IMG/VR virus record: IMGVR_UViG_3300035182_000918
Span: 1 to 63,998 of that record
Reading direction: 5' to 3' (one strand)
Length of the DNA: 63,998 nucleotides
Source: a virus
Lineage: Duplodnaviria; Caudoviricetes
Positions within the stretch are counted from its first letter, which is position 1. The number at the start of each line of letters is the position of its first letter. Below are positions 5,793 to 44,689 of this stretch, one piece after another. The notes under the pieces are model-generated. The model saw only the letters and a list, made by a program, of their open reading frames with translations, was not told the DNA's origin and searched no databases. A program made the position numbers and the translations under genes.

Positions 5793-6598
5793 ATTAGTTC
5801 TACGCCTCCTTTTAACCATTCAATACTACCATTTCTCTCTTTAGCTTGACTTCTATCCATCACCTCCCACTTGTCATTTTGTTTTAAAAGATTTATTAAA
5901 GTGTCTACTGTTACCGATGCTTGCCAATGTTGTGTGAATATTCCTACACTATCACCTTCGGTAAATTTCACTTTCATTTCCCAATAAAGCACTGGATTAA
6001 ATCTATGATACCTATAAAAAAGTTCTAAATTGTGTTCCAACTCACTAAAATTTTTCTGTGATTTTAATTTCTTAACCGCATCTGATTCTTCCTCTACATA
6101 CAAAGTAACATTTGGGTCAAGATGATTTATAAACGGAAAGAATATTTTACTAAATCTTATATTTTGCAGTTCTGAATTAATTAACATAGGCTCATTACTA
6201 TAATCATTGATACAATAAAAAGCTATTTTATTATCTTCAATTATCACATCGTTAAAGTTATTATAAAACAACCAATCTCCTCTAAACTTTTTCCAACATT
6301 TTAATATTTCTATGGCTTCTTCATAAGATATTCCATAAAAATTCCTATCAAAATATTCTATCATACAAAAATTTTCGTTAAAAAATATTTGCTTCGGGTT
6401 ATAAATTATTTCTCTTTTTTCACAGGGTATATCTGTCTTTTCTATATTCCTTGAACCATCCTTAAATGTTTTTTTGAACATTAAAGATTTACATTTAGGA
6501 CACATTACCACAAGACCCTTTTTTTTAATTCTCTTTTTTGGTTTTAATTCGTCTTCATTTACCATCTCATTACACACAGGGCACTTATACTGTTTCAT
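5789..6598 (-). CDS. Zinc-ribbon-containing hypothetical protein
   Basis: CPVC...CPKC at N-terminus; conserved in copy 2. Confidence 0.7.
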   Translation of the reverse strand: MKQYKCPVCNEMVNEDELKPKKRIKKKGLVVMCPKCKSLMFKKTFKDGSRNIEKTDIPCEKREIIYNPKQIFFNENFCMIEYFDRNFYGISYEEAIEILKCWKKFRGDWLFYNNFNDVIIEDNKIAFYCINDYSNEPMLINSELQNIRFSKIFFPFINHLDPNVTLYVEEESDAVKKLKSQKNFSELEHNLELFYRYHRFNPVLYWEMKVKFTEGDSVGIFTQHWQASVTVDTLINLLKQNDKWEVMDRSQAKERNGSIEWLKGGVELI

Positions 6599-38203: not shown

Positions 38204-38629
38204 CTATCTATGAATTAATTGATGCGATGTTAATAACATATCTTTTATAGCATAATAATGTGGATTAAAAATCATAGCAATATAATGACTGTCTAAAAAA
38301 TCTGATAATGTAATCATAAAGAAAACAAGCATAATCACCCCAAAAACTCCTAATGCCATCATTTTAATAATTCCACAATCCTCATCTCCAACCTCATCAT
38401 CTACATCTTTTTTTGCCTTTAAAAACATTTTAAAAACAAGAATTGTGCCCCCTAAAGTCAATATAGCCGTTATTAAAAAAGAAACCACACCTATTATACC
38501 TGATACAAATTGCTGATAAACAAAATAGGGATAAATCTTATCAACCGTAATTCCTAATTGATGAGCCACTTCTCTCAACATATTAGCAACATTGTTACCC
38601 ACATCAAAACTAAAATTAAAATCACTCAT
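38204..38629 (-). CDS. Membrane protein with two TM segments
   Basis: Two hydrophobic stretches; FNPHYYAIK motif. Confidence 0.65.
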   Translation of the reverse strand: MSDFNFSFDVGNNVANMLREVAHQLGITVDKIYPYFVYQQFVSGIIGVVSFLITAILTLGGTILVFKMFLKAKKDVDDEVGDEDCGIIKMMALGVFGVIMLVFFMITLSDFLDSHYIAMIFNPHYYAIKDMLLTSHQLIHR

Positions 38630-38827
38630 TTAAACCTCCTTTTCTTCTCTGGTTGATGTTTTAACTAACAAATCTTGATTTAAATTAATAGTTATTTGTC
38701 GTGGTTGCGTTTCAATAGACTCTATAGAATCATCTGGAAGAACTATTACTGTAAATGTTTTATCAGGTGTCTTTTCATAATCAAACACATCTACTATCCA
38801 ACCCCAAAACTTTTTCACCCAATTCAT
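38630..38827 (-). CDS. Hypothetical protein
   Basis: GGAGG RBS; tight operon packing. Confidence 0.6.
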   Translation of the reverse strand: MNWVKKFWGWIVDVFDYEKTPDKTFTVIVLPDDSIESIETQPRQITINLNQDLLVKTSTREEKEV

Positions 38828-39070
38828 CTAACCCTCCTGTTCAGCTTTTTTAACATACCTTGACGCTAAAATATTATCAATTTTTTCAAATACCCATCTA
38901 CCTCCTTTTTCGCCTAATTTAGCTTCTTCATAATAATTTCCAAAAGCATCTTTATATGTTTTTTCCCCTACATCAACAACAACAAGAGGAATTTCTTCGT
39001 CCCAACGCTCAATACTTTCCAACACTACATTAAGAATGTAAAGTCGTTCATCTTTTTTCTTTTTACTCAT
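38828..39070 (-). CDS. Hypothetical protein
   Basis: GGAGG RBS; tight operon packing. Confidence 0.6.
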   Translation of the reverse strand: MSKKKKDERLYILNVVLESIERWDEEIPLVVVDVGEKTYKDAFGNYYEEAKLGEKGGRWVFEKIDNILASRYVKKAEQEG

Positions 39071-39553
39071 TTAACCCTCCTTTACAAATATTGGTTTTAA
39101 TCTAATATACTCTTGTATTAGATTGGCTACCCTATTTAACCAACCCTGCCCAAATGTTTTAAAATTAACATCACCAGTGTGATAACTAATCCTCTTTTGT
39201 AATATATACATCGTGTATATATCCCAGTTCTTAACTTGACTTTTAAGGTCAAGATAAGCATTTTTCATTACATTTGATATCCATCTTGGTCCGCACAATA
39301 TAGCACAGTCAAGACACACAAATGCTACAGGAAACGGGTAGTTACTTAATCCCAATGGTTGCCAATAAGCATTGTAGTAAATATTTAATGCTTGGTCTAA
39401 AGTTAGCTTTGCAATATCAATGTTAGGATAAGCCCTTTTACTTATACCATATTTTGTTTCACCACCAGGGTCAGCGGGGTTATTCACATATCCACCTTCT
39501 GTGGCGAGTATCCACTCTTCTATGGTATTCTTTTGAAACTCACTCCAATCCAT
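39071..39553 (-). CDS. Endolysin, glycosyl hydrolase family 108 (start reassigned to MDWSEF)
   Basis: EGGYVNNPADPGGETKYGIS and FGQGWLNRV. Confidence 0.9.
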   Translation of the reverse strand: MDWSEFQKNTIEEWILATEGGYVNNPADPGGETKYGISKRAYPNIDIAKLTLDQALNIYYNAYWQPLGLSNYPFPVAFVCLDCAILCGPRWISNVMKNAYLDLKSQVKNWDIYTMYILQKRISYHTGDVNFKTFGQGWLNRVANLIQEYIRLKPIFVKEG

Positions 39554-39574
39554 AAACACCTCCTTGTGCAAAAG

Positions 39575-39892
39575 TCAATCATTATTCCTTTCTTTCAATT
39601 CCTTCACTATCATAACAATCAAAAAGTAAGACAACGAATAAAAGTAGTTCGATAAATGTGTCATTTCATCATCAATATCTGTTTCTATAAGCTCGTTCCA
39701 AGTCTCTACAAATACTTGCTGTGATGCCAGTTCTCTATCATTCACACAAACTCCATCTATTACAACATCATTAACCTTCCAATCTTCTTTTTCTATCAAA
39801 GATAAAATACCTTCCAATATTAGCTCTGTAAAACCATTCTTAATTAGAAAATCTTCTAAATATGAATACTCTTCAAATTTCTGCAACTCCAT
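39575..39892 (-). CDS. Acidic 105-aa protein downstream of the mini-tmRNA (start reassigned to MELQKF)
   Basis: AAGGAGGTG RBS right after the RNA CCA end; resembles early MELKQF/MQLKFF proteins. Confidence 0.7.
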   Translation of the reverse strand: MELQKFEEYSYLEDFLIKNGFTELILEGILSLIEKEDWKVNDVVIDGVCVNDRELASQQVFVETWNELIETDIDDEMTHLSNYFYSLSYFLIVMIVKELKERNND

Positions 39893-39908
39893 AAACACCT
39901 CCTTTACT

Positions 39909-39989
39909 TGGTGGAGGAGACGGGAATCGAACCCGTGTCCAACAGATGCGCTTTGGCTTTTACCTGTTGTCAAAACCATTCGCTCCCCC
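39909..39989 (-). ncRNA. Mini-tmRNA-like RNA: tRNA-like domain only, 81 nt
   Basis: GGGGGAG/CTCCTCC acceptor stem with G3.U70, A73 and encoded CCA; stemless D-loop ending GGTTTTGAC; 7-bp helix AACAGGT/ATCTGTT; GGAC linker; T-arm ACGGG-TTCGATT-CCCGT. Confidence 0.85.
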
Positions 39990-39994
39990 ACATA

Positions 39995-40024
39995 ATAATA
40001 TACACACTTTTTACAAAAAGTCAA
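39995..40024 (-). promoter_or_regulatory. Early-type promoter driving the mini-tmRNA
   Basis: TTGACTTTTTGTAAAAAGTGTGTATATTAT, ending 5 nt before G1. Confidence 0.8.
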
Positions 40025-40027
40025 GTC

Positions 40028-40255
40028 TTAATGTATAAGTTGTAATAATTTTAAAATAATCTCTGTTGTTACCCCTACAAACAACAATATGCCAACATTC
40101 CTTAAACTTTTAAATGCGTCATTGAGATATCCTATTTCAATCTTTATCTCCTTAATATCCTTCTCTAATGCACCAAACTTTGAACCCAGTTTAGCCTCAA
40201 GAACAATGTCAATTAAGTGTTCGTTGTCTTTATTGAGAATCTCTTGGTCTGCCAT
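40028..40255 (-). CDS. Coiled-coil protein with C-terminal TM segment
   Basis: LEKDIKEIK heptads then hydrophobic tail; upstream of the endolysin. Confidence 0.6.
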   Translation of the reverse strand: MADQEILNKDNEHLIDIVLEAKLGSKFGALEKDIKEIKIEIGYLNDAFKSLRNVGILLFVGVTTEIILKLLQLIH

Positions 40256-40517
40256 CTTTAATCCCTCCTAAATGAATTGTTAAAATATAAAATATAAGTG
40301 AAAATACCGCAAAAATACTCATTACTATTATCTTTTGCCAACTTATATTGATAACAGTAATAACAAGCAATACTGTATTAACAATTAAAAGCAAAATAGG
40401 TATTGCCATTTTCTCTATAAAAAGCCTTATCTGTTGCACTCTTAATAGATACTGTTGTAGTTCTTGAATACGCTTTTGTTCTTCTTGCTTTATTATTTCT
40501 TGTTTACTCATTCTCAT
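40230..40517 (-). CDS. Membrane protein with two TM segments (start reassigned)
   Basis: MRMSKQE... followed by two hydrophobic helices. Confidence 0.65.
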   Translation of the reverse strand: MRMSKQEIIKQEEQKRIQELQQYLLRVQQIRLFIEKMAIPILLLIVNTVLLVITVINISWQKIIVMSIFAVFSLIFYILTIHLGGIKDGRPRDSQ

Positions 40518-40710
40518 TTTCACCCCCAAGCTCCGTTCCAAAACCATCGTATTTTTTCAATTCTTTATTAACCTTTAAATAATTAAGTGCGATATTCACT
40601 GCTATTTCAGCCCTATTTAGTTCCTCTATATCCTTGTCCTTGTAAGACGAGATAATGTCATCAACTTCAGCCTTGACTTTATCTTCTATTGTTATTAGCT
40701 TTTTTGCCAT
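40504..40710 (-). CDS. Hypothetical protein (copy of 153..359)
   Basis: Near-identical protein. Confidence 0.75.
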   Translation of the reverse strand: MAKKLITIEDKVKAEVDDIISSYKDKDIEELNRAEIAVNIALNYLKVNKELKKYDGFGTELGGENENE

Positions 40711-40966
40711 ACTTTTCCTCCAGTATTTTGGCTATATACTTGCTGCAATTTATCTGATACAAACGCTCCCCTAAATATTTCACAGTAGCCTTCGGATACT
40801 TAACAGCCAAATCTGCGGCTTCAAGTAGTATGTCAACTACTTGTGCCTCTGGTAATATTTCCCTAACATCTTCAATCAAGTCCTCTAAAAAGATGTAGTT
40901 CGGGTAATAATCCCTTTGGGCTATAACCGCTATAATTAGCTTTGTGTATCCTTCTAACTCATACAT
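40679..40966 (-). CDS. Hypothetical protein (copy of 316..615)
   Basis: Near-identical protein. Confidence 0.75.
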   Translation of the reverse strand: MYELEGYTKLIIAVIAQRDYYPNYIFLEDLIEDVREILPEAQVVDILLEAADLAVKYPKATVKYLGERLYQINCSKYIAKILEEKYGKKANNNRR

Positions 40967-40967
40967 A

Positions 40968-42461
40968 TCAATTAAACATCTCTACCGTTATTTCGTTATT
41001 ATTAGTCATAGGTAAATAATTGTTTTTTATTATCCTAACTTTAACCCCGTTATAATATCTATGCAACAGTGCAACCCATCTTGAGTTATCAAATAGTGCT
41101 GCTGCACCCCTTAAACCCTCTTTGCTATCGTTGTCCTTTTTTCTTAAGTGGTGTATCATCACAATGTTACCATTGGTTCTTTCAGTTAATCTCATTAATC
41201 TTTGGAATATAGCCTCTACAATCTCATTGTTGTTCTCATCGGAAAACAACATACCAACTGGGTCTATAAAAACTAAATCGCTGTTGGTTAAATGCTCTTC
41301 CACTTTCTCAAAAAAGTAGTTACCACGCCTTGTCCATTCACCATCTTTTAACAGATTAATATGGTTTATTCTTTCAACTACTATTTTTCCTGCTATTGCT
41401 TCGTAGTTACTGTCAAAATATGTATCAATTAGGTGTTTAATTCTGTATAGTATAATATAATAACTATCTTCAAGACTTATAAAAGTAGTTTTTAATCCCT
41501 CATTAATAGCACCATATACAGCACAATACAAGCTAAACATAGACTTACCTTCACCACCTCTACTTGCTAATATACCTATAACACCCTTTGGTATATTTAA
41601 GAGTTCTGGCAACAATATTTGTGGCTCTGGTATTGGTTGGGTTAAGGCTTCTATATCAATTACATACTTTTGGGTTTCCACATTTTTATATAAGTAGTCA
41701 GCATTATCTAATAGAACCCAAAAGTCTTCTTCAGAAGACTCTTGAATAAAGTCAGCAATGTCGTAACCTTTTTTGGGGTTACCTCTAAACCTTACAATTC
41801 TTATTGTATTTACTATAGGCTCAAGTGTCTTTTGAATAGCTTTTGTATTACGATATCCAGTCTCATCATTGTCTTCAAAGATAACTATATTTGATTGTTT
41901 AAAAAATTCTTCTAAATATTCTTGATATTGAATCTCAAAGCTGTTAAAACCAAGCACTATTGCATTTGCATCAATAGCAAAAGGTTTTAATGCTTCAGCA
42001 CATTTTTCACCTTCGGTTAACCATATTTCGGTATCCATACTACGCTTTTGTGCCAACTGTTGCAAATTATACAACACTTGGGTTACGCCTTTTGGTTCTA
42101 TTTTAAAGGTTTTCTTGCCATCTTTTTCATAGCGATATTTCTTATATAACTCATTACCATCTAAATCTTTATAAACATACACCACAACATTATCCACATT
42201 GTTTAAATCAAGATTGCTGTTCTTAAATTCACCCATTTCTTTAACCCCCATTAATTCTAAAAATCGTTTGTAATTACCGTGAACACCACAACCGAAGCAG
42301 TGGAACGCTCCAGTCTCTGGATTTATTCCTAAACTTGGGTTGTGGTCTTCGTGAAAAGGGCAGGTTGCAAGGTAGTTGTTTCCTACTTTTTTTATATCCA
42401 AATACTTGCTATAAAGTTCAAGATAATCAGGTTTCACTAATGCTAAATTCATTTTCTTCAC
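40968..42461 (-). CDS. Primase-helicase (copy 2)
   Basis: Same motifs as 617..2110. Confidence 0.9.
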   Translation of the reverse strand: MKKMNLALVKPDYLELYSKYLDIKKVGNNYLATCPFHEDHNPSLGINPETGAFHCFGCGVHGNYKRFLELMGVKEMGEFKNSNLDLNNVDNVVVYVYKDLDGNELYKKYRYEKDGKKTFKIEPKGVTQVLYNLQQLAQKRSMDTEIWLTEGEKCAEALKPFAIDANAIVLGFNSFEIQYQEYLEEFFKQSNIVIFEDNDETGYRNTKAIQKTLEPIVNTIRIVRFRGNPKKGYDIADFIQESSEEDFWVLLDNADYLYKNVETQKYVIDIEALTQPIPEPQILLPELLNIPKGVIGILASRGGEGKSMFSLYCAVYGAINEGLKTTFISLEDSYYIILYRIKHLIDTYFDSNYEAIAGKIVVERINHINLLKDGEWTRRGNYFFEKVEEHLTNSDLVFIDPVGMLFSDENNNEIVEAIFQRLMRLTERTNGNIVMIHHLRKKDNDSKEGLRGAAALFDNSRWVALLHRYYNGVKVRIIKNNYLPMTNNNEITVEMFN

Positions 42462-42975: not shown

Positions 42976-43715
42976 AATAATATCCTTGTTAATCTTCCTT
43001 CTGCCATTTTAATATATTCTGGATTTTCTTCTATGCCTATGTAATTTCTTCCAAGCTTCTTCGCGGTTACTGCTGTTGTGCCGCTTCCCATAAATGGGTC
43101 TAAAACCACATCACCCTTTAGCGTGCTTGCCTGAATAAACCTACCCACAACTGCTTCAGGTTTTTCTGTAGGGTGTTCTGTTTGACCATACGAAGATTTA
43201 TTAGCTGTAAGCATATAATTACACATTTCTTTTTGAGTTAAAAAGTTCTTAATTTTACCTTCACCCTTACTTCCAACCCAAACAAATTCTGAAGATGAAA
43301 GCCAATTTACTTTACGAAAAGAAGGCACAGGGTTTGTTTTAGCCCATACAAAAATAGTTCTTGATTTGACACCATATTTAGGTGCTAAAAACAAATCAAA
43401 ATAACCTATTCTTTGTTTATCAAAAAAAATATAAATCCAGCTTTTTGGTTTTAACACCCTTATACACTCTTTAAACCAACTTTCAGTAAACTCAAAAAAA
43501 TCTTGTTCACTGTCAAAACAGTCCCACTCTCCAAAATCTAATCTAATGTCCGAATTTCTTTTATGTGTTTTTGATGATAAATTTTTTCTACTAATCTTAT
43601 TGCCTTCTTGACTAATAAAATAAGGTGGGTCAGTAACAACTAAATCCACACTTTCATCTGGGATTGTTTTTAACACTTCTAAACAATCACCTTGTATTAT
43701 CTTGTTTACTTCCAT
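42972..43715 (-). CDS. Orphan beta-class N6-adenine/N4-cytosine DNA methyltransferase; copy 2 only
   Basis: TDPPY, HPTEKP and LDPFMGSGTT in beta order. Confidence 0.92.
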   Translation of the reverse strand: MEVNKIIQGDCLEVLKTIPDESVDLVVTDPPYFISQEGNKISRKNLSSKTHKRNSDIRLDFGEWDCFDSEQDFFEFTESWFKECIRVLKPKSWIYIFFDKQRIGYFDLFLAPKYGVKSRTIFVWAKTNPVPSFRKVNWLSSSEFVWVGSKGEGKIKNFLTQKEMCNYMLTANKSSYGQTEHPTEKPEAVVGRFIQASTLKGDVVLDPFMGSGTTAVTAKKLGRNYIGIEENPEYIKMAEGRLTRILL

Positions 43716-43717
43716 AC

Positions 43718-44689
43718 TTACTTCTCCAACTTAAACAATTGCTCCTGTGCCTGTTTGCAAAATGGTGCCGCTTTACAATACAAAGCACAGTTCATAACAC
43801 CTTCCCTTTCCTCAATTGTATATTTTTTGTCTGGATTATCCCTAATAAACATTTCAGCCTCAAGCTTGGTATTAAATATTTTTACCGCACTTTTTCGCTT
43901 TGGTTGTTTTACGGCATAAGTTGTAGGTCTTAACATCTTCTCATCATCAGAACAGATATCTAACTCATACAAATCTTGGGGCGGTAACTCTATTAGCTTT
44001 TTATACAAGTAAATACGCTCCGACAAATATTTTTCTACATCTTCCATAGGCATTACATTAACAGGCACGACTGTTACATTTTCTTGGGGATAATCGCTTT
44101 GACTTGTTTTTGATTGTTGCCAACCATCCCAAAAGAATGTTATATCAGCCTTTACTATTTGAGTTAACCTCTCTTCTGTATTTGCTCCCAAATAGCGATA
44201 AACCGATAATTGCTTTTCATAATTTGCATAAGTTCCAAAGACATACTTATAGGTGCTTGCTGTCTTCCAATCTACAAGCTTTTCATCTGGAAAAGAAACA
44301 AGGTCAATAACGCCTTTTATTGTAATATCATCAATTGTTAATTTAACAGGATACTCAACCAAATAATCCTCTTCTTTTGTTATCTCTCTTAAAAATTCAG
44401 GCTTAATATCCACATAATCGCCATTAAGGATTGCCCTTAAGTAATCGGAATAAAACTCATTTTTAATTCTTGTCGTAGCATAAAGTAATGCTATTTGGTT
44501 GTGCAATGCTGTTCCCTTAAAAGCACGAAAAGTATCTCTTTTATTCGTGGGTAAATTTACTTTCTTTTTTAGGGCTGCCGCTTTTAAAGAGCCTATAATA
44601 TCAGTGACCCCCACAGTATGGGGGTCTTTGTTTTGAGGGTGTAAATTGCTTATTGATTCATATAAATCATCTAAATACTTTGTCATCAC
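43718..44689 (-). CDS. PD-(D/E)XK Cas4-like exonuclease (copy 2)
   Basis: Homolog of 2629..3600. Confidence 0.8.
   Translation of the reverse strand: MMTKYLDDLYESISNLHPQNKDPHTVGVTDIIGSLKAAALKKKVNLPTNKRDTFRAFKGTALHNQIALLYATTRIKNEFYSDYLRAILNGDYVDIKPEFLREITKEEDYLVEYPVKLTIDDITIKGVIDLVSFPDEKLVDWKTASTYKYVFGTYANYEKQLSVYRYLGANTEERLTQIVKADITFFWDGWQQSKTSQSDYPQENVTVVPVNVMPMEDVEKYLSERIYLYKKLIELPPQDLYELDICSDDEKMLRPTTYAVKQPKRKSAVKIFNTKLEAEMFIRDNPDKKYTIEEREGVMNCALYCKAAPFCKQAQEQLFKLEK

What the first reader, a model, noticed from the sequence alone, without database searches (positions are those of the whole stretch)
39909..39989. Phage-encoded mini-tmRNA: complete tRNA-like domain with no mRNA-like domain
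Seen: the minus strand reads GGGGGAG CGAATGGTTTTGAC AACAGGT AAAAGCCAAAGCGC ATCTGTT GGAC ACGGG TTCGATT CCCGT CTCCTCC A CCA (81 nt). The 7-bp acceptor stem pairs fully, with G3.U70, discriminator A and encoded CCA. Established: G3.U70 is the AlaRS determinant, and a stemless D-loop ending GG...GAC, helix 2a, a short GAC connector and a T-arm define the tmRNA tRNA-like domain, which binds SmpB. Here helix 2 is closed by a 14-nt loop, so there are no pseudoknots and no tag reading frame. TLD-only tmRNAs are known from jakobid and oomycete mitochondria; I do not know a described phage case, but cannot search. Inference: it could sequester SmpB to block trans-translation, rescue stalled ribosomes without adding a degradation tag, or decoy tRNA-targeting defence nucleases.
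Basis: partly seen in the sequence, partly recalled or inferred. Interest (0 to 1): 0.92.

Follow-up and report, generated by a model that had tools for sequence, protein, structure and literature searches.

The report
Phage tmRNA reduced to tRNA-like domain
This phage carries an 81-base gene for a cut-down ribosome-rescue RNA (tmRNA) that keeps only the alanine-accepting tRNA-like part; the kind is already known from one mycobacteriophage, and here it proves to be one member of a large, mostly unannotated phage family.

Summary
Window 39909-39989 (-) is a full-model match to Rfam tmRNA (66 bits, E 1.6e-23) in which 308 inner model positions are replaced by 14 nt. It has no reading frame and no pseudoknots.

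The claim that no phage case is described is wrong. Mycobacteriophage DS6A has a published "TLD only" tmRNA. My model built from this family finds it at 58.6 bits.

The RNA belongs to a large phage family:
- Unannotated copies sit in the tRNA arrays of three cultured Streptomyces phages.
- Covariation is strong: 92% of cells paired against 47-57% when partners are slid.
- With the acceptor stem left out of the search pattern, G3.U70 occurs in 109 of 113 and discriminator A in 113 of 113.

Carriers encode no SmpB (0 of 49) and few integrases (7 of 49).

My best reading is that the RNA is charged with alanine, bound by host SmpB, and competes with host tmRNA at stalled ribosomes, so no degradation tag is added. 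Expression, charging and binding are all untested. Verdict: a new member of a known kind, of moderate interest.

The parts
39909..39989 (-). TLD-only (mini) tmRNA gene, 81 nt, CCA encoded
   Evidence: Rfam RF00023 66 bits, E 1.6e-23, full-model match. Own family model R1 76.1 bits. Sequence read.
39983..39989 (-). Acceptor stem 5' strand (RNA 1-7), with G3 of the G3.U70 pair
   Evidence: Pairs 7 of 7 with 39913-39919. In the family 110 of 113 have 7 of 7 pairs and 109 of 113 have G.U at 3:70.
39969..39982 (-). Stemless D-loop ending GG..UUUUGAC (RNA 8-21)
   Evidence: Aligned to the Rfam tmRNA consensus cuGGaUUCGAC. U18 here is C in 93 of 109 relatives, in the related contig L183, and in contigs of four DNA runs (39972 A>G on the + strand).
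39941..39968 (-). Helix 2a (RNA 22-28 with 43-49) closed by a 14-nt cap (RNA 29-42): A-rich bulge plus stub
   Evidence: All 7 helix pairs show changes on both sides across the family. The cap belongs to the subfamily motif AAAGCC-RAAG-YGC.
39920..39940 (-). GGAC connector and T-arm (5 bp, loop UUCGAUU)
   Evidence: alignment. The two T-stem pairs not fixed by the search pattern are paired in 72 of 72 rows with four pair types.
39909..39919 (-). Acceptor 3' strand with U70, discriminator A, CCA
   Evidence: Discriminator A in 113 of 113 and CCA encoded in 27 of 113 relatives.
39995..40024 (-). Sigma-70-like promoter candidate (TTGACT, 16 or 18 nt, TATATT or TATTAT) ending 6-8 nt before G1
   Evidence: 10 of 12 match. 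Only 2 of 3000 random window positions have so good a site in that register. Both hexamers are kept in L183. This is a consensus match only; no transcript data.
39575..39892 (-). Downstream ORF (105 aa, no family) with RBS AAGGAGG starting a few nt after the CCA; next gene is a GH108 endolysin (39071-39571)
   Evidence: No terminator-like site on the minus strand between RNA and ORF.

Best explanation
This is a phage gene for a tmRNA reduced to its tRNA-like domain. It belongs to the same kind as the TLD-only tmRNA of mycobacteriophage DS6A and is one member of a large phage-borne family.

Proposed working:
1. It is transcribed from a promoter that abuts G1, or in other phages as part of a tRNA array.
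2. It is trimmed to its CCA end.
3. Host AlaRS charges it with alanine, using G3.U70 and A73.
4. Host SmpB binds it; the phage encodes none.
5. EF-Tu delivers it to ribosomes stalled on broken mRNAs, in competition with host tmRNA.

Because it has no reading frame, the nascent chain can receive alanine but no degradation tag. Normal trans-translation is thereby suppressed or diverted.

Shown here: sequence, structure, covariation, conserved identity elements, tight size, phage-restricted distribution, and absence of a phage SmpB.

Inferred: expression, processing, alanylation, SmpB and EF-Tu binding, ribosome entry, and the benefit to the phage.

My confidence that it is a TLD-only tmRNA of the DS6A kind is about 0.9. 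My confidence in the charged-competitor mechanism is about 0.5.
For: Identity:
- Rfam tmRNA 66 bits, full model.
- Family model R1 scores the window at 76.1 bits and DS6A at 58.6.
- R1 gives full-length phage tmRNAs only 27-31 bits and tRNAs 20.8-31 bits.

Selection on structure:
- 92.1% of 1551 cells are paired, against 47.3-56.7% with slid partners.
- The covariation score is 0.629 against at most 0.119, and 0 of 500 shuffles reach it.

Selection for alanine identity. The search pattern did not include the acceptor stem, yet:
- 110 of 113 distinct RNAs pair 7 of 7.
- 3:70 is G.U in 109 of 113.
- The discriminator is A in 113 of 113.

Size constraint: 95 of 109 are 80-83 nt, although the pattern allowed about 65-98.

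Dependence on host SmpB: 0 of 49 carrier contigs and the window itself encode SmpB.

Translation-toolkit context:
- 18 of 90 viral loci hold tRNAs, and in 13 the nearest tRNA is within 100 nt.
- The copies in three cultured Streptomyces phages lie in unannotated gaps of tRNA arrays.

Literature (passages seen):
- A DS6A-like TLD molecule strongly inhibits tmRNA in E. coli, 'perhaps acting by titrating SmpB' (PMC4131195; PMC11915505).
- Peptidyl transfer to a TLD-only tmRNA occurs in vitro (PMC3895274 citing Shimizu and Ueda 2006).
Against:
- The published inhibition is reported as independent of chargeability. Inhibition alone therefore does not explain why G3.U70 and A73 are kept.
- Without a stop codon there is no known way to release the peptidyl-TLD ribosome, and jamming ribosomes would also hurt the phage.
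- No release-factor or ArfB-type domain is co-encoded (0 of 49), and no conserved protein neighbour exists (largest cluster 13 of 91 loci).
- The host of this phage is unknown.
- Between the window and its close relative L183 the RNA is no better conserved (76 of 81, 93.8%) than the flanks (93.4% over 3437 nt). The five changes lie in loops or the connector, or turn G-C into G.U.
- Columns fixed by my search patterns (D-loop and T-loop motifs, GGAC) are conserved by construction.
Confidence: 0.55

Rival explanations
1. Productive tag-free ribosome rescue. The alanyl-TLD with host SmpB frees ribosomes stalled on broken mRNAs during infection, with release completed by a host factor or by drop-off. 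It would be a translation-support gene like phage tRNAs, not an inhibitor.
For: - Alanine identity elements are kept.
- It sits in or next to tRNA arrays.
- Most carriers lack an integrase: 42 of 49 have none.
- Frame-less tmRNAs in mitochondria co-occur with SmpB and are thought to help with incomplete mRNAs (PMC11915505 passage).
- Peptidyl transfer to a TLD occurs in vitro.
Against: - There is no stop codon, so the release step is unknown.
- No RF-1/ArfB-type domain in 0 of 49 carriers.
- The only reported in vivo effect of such a molecule is inhibition of tmRNA in E. coli.
Confidence: 0.2
2. Pure SmpB sponge. The RNA only titrates host SmpB away from tmRNA and never needs to be charged or to enter the ribosome.
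For: - Hudson et al. [quoted passage not shown]
- Carriers encode no SmpB.
Against: - Near-invariant G3.U70 (109 of 113) and invariant A73 (113 of 113) in an acceptor stem the search did not constrain. A sponge would be free to lose these.
- The narrow length range of 80-83 nt in 95 of 109 suggests a fit to more than one protein.
Confidence: 0.15
3. Decoy or processing element. A tRNA-shaped RNA that soaks up a host nuclease aimed at tRNA or tmRNA, or that serves as an RNase P/Z cleavage mark separating the replication and lysis transcripts.
For: - It lies at the border between the replication genes and the lysis and packaging genes, with no terminator before the next ORF.
- A Pistol self-cleaving ribozyme lies about 100 nt upstream of the copy in L026, which hints that transcript cutting matters around these genes.
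Against: - It has no anticodon loop, the usual target of such nucleases.
- tmRNA-specific features are kept rather than generic tRNA shape: helix 2a, the A-rich bulge and GGAC.
- A cleavage mark would not need G3.U70 and A73.
Confidence: 0.05
4. Integration-site remnant (attP copy of the host ssrA 3' end), or a full tmRNA collapsed by assembly or a recent deletion.
For: - Phages often integrate into ssrA and carry its 3' part (PMC10865867 passage).
- The window itself is a chimeric assembly of two strain variants.
Against: - Both TLD halves are present.
- The window has no tyrosine integrase although it spans more than one genome length, and only 7 of 49 carriers have one.
- An independent contig, L183, has the same short form at the same place.
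- The same form of about 82 nt recurs in 113 distinct sequences with compensatory changes.
- In four bacterial genomes that hold both, the mini differs from the resident full tmRNA in acceptor stem, helix 2a and T-stem.
Confidence: 0.02

Closest known systems
TLD-only tmRNA of mycobacteriophage DS6A (Mao et al. 2009, not held, known to me only through citing passages; Hudson, Lau and Williams 2014, PMC4131195; tmRNA database 2025, PMC11915505)
   Same: - About 80 nt, in a phage.
- Acceptor stem with G3.U70, stemless D-loop, helix 2a, A-rich bulge plus short stub hairpin, T-arm, discriminator A.
- No reading frame.
- Found by the same family model (58.6 bits at JN698994 28478-28560).
- Not the phage's att site: DS6A integrates at tRNA-Lys.
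   Different: - The host and phage lineage differ: a low-GC (about 33%) phage of about 41 kb from sediment or microbial-mat samples, against a 60.6-kb actinobacteriophage.
- The window RNA encodes CCA; DS6A's does not.
- The stub is of the GCC-RAAG-YGC type rather than CCGCACGCGG.
- DS6A's connector and T-loop deviate from my search pattern.
Bacterial tmRNA (SsrA, Rfam RF00023)
   Same: The whole tRNA-like domain: acceptor stem with G3.U70, A73, CCA, D-loop GG..GAC, helix 2a, GGAC and T-arm. All aligned end to end by the Rfam model.
   Different: - Lacks pseudoknots PK1-PK4, the resume codon, the tag reading frame and its stop codon.
- 308 model positions are replaced by 14 nt.
- It therefore cannot perform full trans-translation.
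Frame-less organellar tmRNAs: mitochondrial (jakobids, oomycetes; Rfam RF02544) and about 65-bp plastid forms of Mallomonadaceae (PMC11915505 passage)
   Same: Reduced to little more than the TLD, with no tag frame, and presumed to work with an SmpB encoded elsewhere.
   Different: - They are organellar and replace the only tmRNA of their compartment. The phage RNA enters a cell that already has a full tmRNA, so it must compete or cooperate with it.
- Rfam's best family here is RF00023, but only the best family of the clan is reported, so the RF02544 score was not seen.
Full-length phage tmRNAs (cluster C mycobacteriophages, Streptomyces BE phages, Melnitz two-piece; Enterococcus phage EFDG1, S-CAM1, Kumao, JGB6 checked)
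   Same: Phage-encoded, often near tRNA genes, and dependent on host SmpB in most cases.
   Different: - They keep the reading frame and pseudoknots (94.7-140.6 bits to the Rfam tmRNA families, about 270-410 nt).
- They score only 27-31 bits with the mini model R1.
Engineered TLD constructs used in vitro (Shimizu and Ueda 2006, as cited in PMC3895274)
   Same: A tmRNA cut down to the TLD. It accepts the nascent peptide on stalled ribosomes in vitro.
   Different: They are laboratory constructs. The phage family is natural and keeps a conserved A-rich bulge and stub.

Membership tests
tmRNA (Rfam RF00023), full function | tRNA-like domain: 7-bp acceptor stem with G3.U70, discriminator A, D-loop without stem (GG..GAC), helix 2a, T-arm | tested here: met
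   Full-model Rfam alignment, 66 bits against a cut-off of 47. Sequence read. Covariation in relatives.
tmRNA (Rfam RF00023), full function | mRNA-like domain with resume codon, tag reading frame and stop codon | tested here: not met
   Only 14 nt lie between the helix-2a strands. 308 model positions are absent. ARAGORN reports no tmRNA or tag peptide.
tmRNA (Rfam RF00023), full function | Pseudoknots PK1-PK4 | tested here: not met
   There is no sequence available for them.
tmRNA (Rfam RF00023), full function | Alanylation by AlaRS and binding of SmpB and EF-Tu | not testable with these tools
   The only evidence is indirect: the determinants are conserved, with G.U in 109 of 113 and A73 in 113 of 113.
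Phage TLD-only tmRNA (DS6A type) | About 80-nt RNA made of the TLD plus a short closed helix 2, with no reading frame | tested here: met
   The window RNA is 81 nt. DS6A's is 83 nt with the same layout. One covariance model finds both, at 76.1 and 58.6 bits.
Phage TLD-only tmRNA (DS6A type) | Encoded in a phage genome, separate from any host ssrA or att site | tested here: met
   - Terminase, primase/helicase and endolysin lie around it.
- The source is a virus record.
- No integrase.
Phage TLD-only tmRNA (DS6A type) | Inhibits host trans-translation when expressed | not testable with these tools
   Known only from cited passages on Mao et al. 2009. That paper is not held.
Mitochondrial tmRNA (Rfam RF02544) | Best match to the mt-tmRNA model, and an organellar location | tested here: inconclusive
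   cmscan keeps only the best family of clan CL00001, which was RF00023, so the RF02544 score itself is not shown. The location is a phage, not an organelle.
tRNA-Ala | Anticodon stem-loop and D-stem | tested here: not met
   - ARAGORN finds no tRNA.
- The Rfam clan winner is tmRNA, not tRNA.
- The region after the D-loop aligns to helix 2a.
ssrA-derived attP or att remnant | Only the 3' part of ssrA, identical to the host gene, next to an integrase | tested here: not met
   - Both halves are present.
- No tyrosine integrase in the window.
- In four genomes the mini differs from the resident tmRNA 3' end.

The most novel reading that the evidence does not exclude
TLD-only tmRNAs are a widespread, phage-specific class that must be alanine-charged to work.

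With host SmpB they enter ribosomes stalled on broken mRNAs and add untemplated alanine, once or repeatedly, without the ssrA tag. This would give phages their own way to clear or re-route stalled ribosomes when host or phage nucleases shred mRNA. In that case they would be a general counter-move in the contest over ribosome rescue, not merely an SmpB sponge.
Probability: 0.3. Interest if true: 0.75.

Novelty: new member of a known kind. Interest (0 to 1): 0.45.

Why it matters
Trans-translation is the main ribosome-rescue path of bacteria, and what phages do to it is poorly known. A single TLD-only phage tmRNA (DS6A) has been in print since 2009.

This window shows the form in an unrelated low-GC phage. 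Following it up shows a family of more than 100 distinct sequences with conserved alanine identity, a fixed size and a conserved bulge-plus-stub motif.

The family is missed by ARAGORN, the tool that large phage surveys used for tmRNAs. It is unannotated in the DS6A record and the three Streptomyces phage records I checked.

Two things follow:
- A simple annotation gap can be closed with a covariance model.
- The open question of what a tmRNA without a message does becomes testable in non-pathogenic systems, namely Streptomyces phages BRock, LuckySocke and Shaeky. The same question stands for mitochondrial tmRNAs.

Tried and rejected
- Expression evidence. The look-up of sequencing runs on window 38500-41500 listed 4 DNA runs and no RNA holder. 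This says nothing about expression.
- Independent spanning contig. Read laying on those 4 runs gave only short contigs. No listed piece spans the whole RNA, so I got no independent spanning contig from it. The depth peak at 39911-39957 sums other organisms' tmRNA and tRNA 3' ends and is not informative.
- Host. DNA search of 39000-41000 against isolate phages found only short endolysin matches. The large terminase is at best 32% identical to Hydrogenobaculum phage 1. The RNA itself finds only T-arm and acceptor matches in isolates. The host stays unknown.
- Conserved protein partner. Clustering 2955 ORFs within 3.5 kb of the RNA in 91 loci gave no cluster in more than 13 loci. The larger clusters are ordinary phage genes.
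- Co-encoded factors. SmpB, RF-1/ArfB domain and integrase were searched in 49 carrier contigs. Results were 0, 0 and 7.
- False members found and set aside. L101 is a standard tmRNA (176 bits). L092 is an alphaproteobacterial permuted tmRNA (149.8 bits). L094 was not scanned against Rfam; I set it aside because it has the same R1 score and the same ARAGORN call as L092. L101 and L092 are still among the 72 rows of alignment A3 counted.
- ARAGORN calls around the RNA. In L026, L069 and L041 it calls a longer 'tmRNA' ending at the mini. Rfam calls only the 81-83-nt form in L026 and L041; L069 was not scanned. In L038 and L083 ARAGORN calls odd tRNAs over the mini.
- Candidates that were not minis. 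Enterococcus phage EFDG1, S-CAM1, Kumao and JGB6 turned out to carry full-length tmRNAs.
- Literature. Searches for 'mini-tmRNA' (0 papers), for TLD-only and similar wordings, for phage-encoded tmRNA with SmpB, for DS6A with tmRNA, for Streptomyces phage with tmRNA, and for papers citing Mao 2009 found no description of a family of such RNAs. This covers only the held library. Supplementary files were not opened; the tmRNA database tables may list more phage entries and bear on the novelty claim.
- Papers not held. Mao et al. 2009 and Jacob et al. 2004. What I say of them comes from citing passages.
- Not used: structure prediction, protein searches in the large databases, and the metagenome-contig scan.
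Full report
**1. The observation**

The layout, in order:
- a 7-bp acceptor stem whose third pair is G.U
- a stemless D-loop ending GG..UUUUGAC
- a 7-bp helix 2a
- a 14-nt cap
- GGAC
- a T-arm of 5 bp with loop UUCGAUU
- discriminator A
- an encoded CCA

Rfam cmscan of the whole window returned a single match at gathering score. It is RF00023 tmRNA at exactly these coordinates: 66.0 bits (cut-off 47), E 1.6e-23, aligned from model position 1 to 374. The 308 positions between the two strands of helix 2a are replaced by 14 nt.

ARAGORN found no tRNA or tmRNA in the window. The single-sequence fold is only mildly better than shuffles (z -2.11, 5 of 200 shuffles as good), so the case rests on homology and comparison.

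**2. It is one of a family**

A degenerate pattern for 'both TLD halves at most 45 nt apart' found 90 stretches in the viral contig collection. It found only 12 in one genome for each of 185,579 prokaryote species.

Of those 12:
- One is a standard full tmRNA (L101).
- Two are set aside as alphaproteobacterial permuted tmRNA: L092 by Rfam, and L094 only by its same R1 score and the same ARAGORN call as L092.
- Of the other nine, neighbours were scanned in seven loci (ten proteins in all). Six of those seven have PHROG matches, with head or connector proteins in two.

A second pattern omitted the acceptor stem.

Together, 166 of 167 viral loci gave a parsable RNA, and 113 of these are distinct. 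The excluded loci were the window's own locus, the DS6A loci and the 12 genome-contig loci.

Of the 109 with a clean acceptor stem and G.U, 95 are 80-83 nt long, although the pattern allowed roughly 65-98. Their G+C ranges from 0.44 to 0.76.

**3. Structure and identity elements are under selection**

I built a covariance model (R1, 82 positions, 22 pairs) from 63 distinct sequences. It aligned 72 distinct matches, all with E below 1e-8. Two of these, L101 and L092, I later recognised as parts of full tmRNAs.

On that alignment:
- 92.1% of 1551 cells form standard pairs, against 47.3-56.7% when the 3' partners are slid by 1-3 columns.
- The covariation score is 0.629, against at most 0.119 for slid partners.
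- 0 of 500 shuffles reach the observed score.
- All 7 pairs of helix 2a show changes on both sides.
- The two T-stem pairs not fixed by the pattern are paired in 72 of 72 rows, with four pair types.

That alignment was fitted to the model, which favours the structure. RNAalifold on the plain MAFFT alignment gave the same helix 2a and T-stem covariation.

In the scan that did not constrain the acceptor stem:
- 110 of 113 distinct RNAs pair 7 of 7.
- Position 3:70 is G.U in 109 of 113.
- The discriminator is A in 113 of 113.
- CCA is encoded in only 27 of 113.

The four 3:70 exceptions are:
- L110, which has a different acceptor.
- L137, which pairs only 4 of 7.
- L119 and L149, where my script chose a doubtful register. 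L149 is G.U in the obvious one.

The inner part is also conserved. It is an A-rich bulge followed by CC and a 3-4-bp stub with a 4-nt loop:
- The motif AA[AG][AGC]CC occurs in 66 of 113.
- The stub form CC[AG]C..G[CT]GG occurs in 42 of 113.

The window belongs to a smaller subfamily with GCC-RAAG-YGC. In the Rfam consensus a GAa bulge follows helix 2a before helix 2b. The family therefore looks like acceptor stem + D-loop + P2a + that bulge + a capped stump of P2b + T-arm.

Columns fixed by my patterns (D-loop and T-loop motifs, GGAC) are conserved by construction and count for nothing.

**4. The kind is already in print**

- Hudson, Lau and Williams 2014 (PMC4131195, passages seen) list 'Mycobacterium phage DS6A (TLD only)'. 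[quoted passage not shown] 2009.
- The 2025 tmRNA database paper (PMC11915505, passages seen) says the DS6A form was shown to inhibit endogenous tmRNA when expressed in E. coli. It also reports frame-less mitochondrial and about 65-bp plastid tmRNAs.
- Mao et al. 2009 itself is not held.

Model R1 finds the DS6A RNA at JN698994 28478-28560 with 58.6 bits. It lies between gp33 and gp34, is unannotated in the record, and has the same layout and the CCGCACGCGG stub.

Three cultured Streptomyces phages carry unannotated members in gaps of their tRNA arrays:
- BRock, 77.4 bits
- LuckySocke, 77.1 bits
- Shaeky, 74.5 bits

As a control, R1 gives only 27-31 bits to the full-length tmRNAs of phages EFDG1, S-CAM1, Kumao and JGB6. 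It gives 20.8-31 bits to tRNAs.

I found no paper describing a family of such RNAs. Two phage surveys whose methods I read used ARAGORN for tmRNAs, and ARAGORN misses this form. Supplements were not opened.

**5. Setting in the window**

The record is a virus contig of about 33% G+C.

It is not one genome. Positions 1-21791 match 40352-63998 at mostly 89-95% identity, with a divergent middle stretch down to 68%. So it is about one and a half turns of a 40-42-kb genome, joined from two strain variants. The RNA lies in the part present once.

On the minus strand the order is:
1. DNA methyltransferase
2. a 182-aa ORF
3. primase/helicase
4. four small ORFs
5. the RNA
6. a 105-aa ORF with no family, whose RBS begins a few nt after the CCA
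7. a GH108 endolysin
8. small ORFs
9. a membrane protein
10. the large terminase

A sigma-70-like site (TTGACT, 16 or 18 nt, TATATT or TATTAT; 10 of 12) ends 6-8 nt before G1. Only 2 of 3000 random positions of the window have so good a site in that register. In the family, 9 of 112 reach 8 of 12, against 1.2% of control positions.

There is no SmpB and no tyrosine integrase in the window.

A related contig, L183 (primase 97% identical), has the RNA at the same place with 69.1 bits. It differs at 5 of 81 positions. All five are in loops or the connector, or turn G-C into G.U, and the promoter hexamers are kept. However, the RNA (93.8%) is no better conserved than the flanks (93.4% over 3437 nt).

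One of those changes, U18 to C, restores the usual UUCGAC. It also appears in contigs of all four DNA runs that hold this phage (39972 A>G on the + strand).

**6. Setting in the family**

- tRNA neighbours. 18 of 90 viral loci hold at least one tRNA in the fetched stretch, and in 13 the nearest tRNA is within 100 nt.
- No conserved protein neighbour exists. The largest cluster covers 13 of 91 loci.
- The neighbours are ordinary phage genes: exonuclease, methyltransferase, prohead protease and major head protein, endolysin, portal and terminase.
- In 49 carrier contigs, 12 of them at least 90% complete:
  - SmpB occurs in 0.
  - An RF-1/ArfB-type domain occurs in 0.
  - A tyrosine integrase occurs in 7, including 2 of the 12.
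- Four bacterial genomes or MAGs hold a full tmRNA (69.9-161.7 bits) and, on another contig, a mini (64.5-69.4 bits). In each, the mini differs from the resident tmRNA in acceptor stem, helix 2a and T-stem. The minis are therefore not deletion copies or att duplicates of the host gene.

**7. How it most likely works**

Shown: a tmRNA TLD with every feature that the Rfam model and the family comparison can test, kept at a fixed size, in phages that bring no SmpB.

Established knowledge (recalled, not from a call):
- G3.U70 with A73 is the AlaRS identity set.
- SmpB binds the TLD elbow.
- EF-Tu delivers Ala-tmRNA-SmpB to ribosomes with an empty A site.

From passages seen:
- Peptidyl transfer to a TLD-only tmRNA occurs in vitro (PMC3895274).
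- A DS6A-like molecule inhibits tmRNA in E. coli.

Inference: since inhibition was reported not to need chargeability, the near-invariance of G3.U70 and A73 argues that the natural function does need charging. That means the RNA goes to the ribosome.

I therefore favour a charged competitor. It takes host SmpB and the stalled ribosome away from host tmRNA, so the nascent chain gets alanine but no tag.

Whether the ribosome is then released (helper) or blocked (inhibitor) cannot be told. There is no stop codon and no co-encoded release factor.

**8. Rivals**

- A pure SmpB sponge fits the published experiment but not the conserved alanine identity.
- Productive tag-free rescue fits the tRNA-array context and the organellar precedents but lacks a release step.
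- A nuclease decoy or processing mark is weakly suggested by the position between gene modules and by a Pistol ribozyme upstream of one relative. It does not explain the tmRNA-specific and AlaRS-specific features.
- An att remnant or an assembly deletion is contradicted.

**9. Verdict**

This is a real, well-formed TLD-only tmRNA.

What the follow-up adds is the scale and uniformity of the family, its conserved charging determinants, and cultured non-pathogenic carriers in which the function can be tested.

Limits:
- No expression or biochemical data.
- Host unknown.
- Pattern-based sampling.
- One key paper and all supplements unseen.

Noticed in passing
window 1-21791 and 40352-63998: The contig is not a single genome. 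These two stretches match each other at mostly 89-95% identity, with a divergent middle down to 68%. The record is therefore about 1.5 turns of a 40-42-kb phage genome joined from two strain variants. CheckV's 67% completeness is misleading.
   Followed up: partly
window 42976-43718: An N6/N4 DNA methyltransferase gene (247 aa, Pfam N6_N4_Mtase 1.8e-49) is present in the second genome copy. It is absent at the matching place of the first copy, between 2624 and 2630. This is an indel between the two strain variants.
   Followed up: partly
L026 6093-6154 (-): A Pistol self-cleaving ribozyme (RF02679, 51.9 bits, cut-off 34.5) lies about 100 nt upstream of that contig's mini-tmRNA (5905-5987) on the same strand. 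ARAGORN merges the area into a false 324-nt 'tmRNA' call.
   Followed up: no
L184 1491-1571, L185 1491-1572, L186 1491-1571; L104 28478-28560: Cultured phages LuckySocke, Shaeky, BRock and DS6A carry mini-tmRNA genes that their GenBank records do not annotate. In the three Streptomyces phages the gene fills an unexplained gap in a tRNA array.
   Followed up: yes
L198 282-632: Enterococcus phage EFDG1 has a full-length tmRNA (RF00023, 140.6 bits) with no feature annotated there in the record.
   Followed up: partly
L104 49300-50000 (DS6A gp76); L186 3024-3058 (BRock gp168): Two carriers also encode RNA ligases: an RtcB-like ligase in DS6A, and an RNA ligase at the edge of the tRNA array in BRock. 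This may hint that these phages repair or defend the translation apparatus.
   Followed up: no
window 39911-39957: In four metagenome runs the summed contig depth is 10-50 times that of the flanks. Contigs diverge on both sides at 39909 and 39942. These are other organisms' tmRNA or tRNA T-arm and acceptor ends that share the sequence, so it is not a copy-number signal of the phage.
   Followed up: partly
L092 2157-2486 and L094: Microvirga lenta has two scaffold copies of a stretch that matches the mini pattern. In L092 it lies inside an alphaproteobacterial permuted tmRNA (RF01849, 149.8 bits). L094 was not scanned against Rfam, but it has the same R1 score and the same ARAGORN tag peptide, so a second ssrA copy is inferred only.
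   Followed up: no
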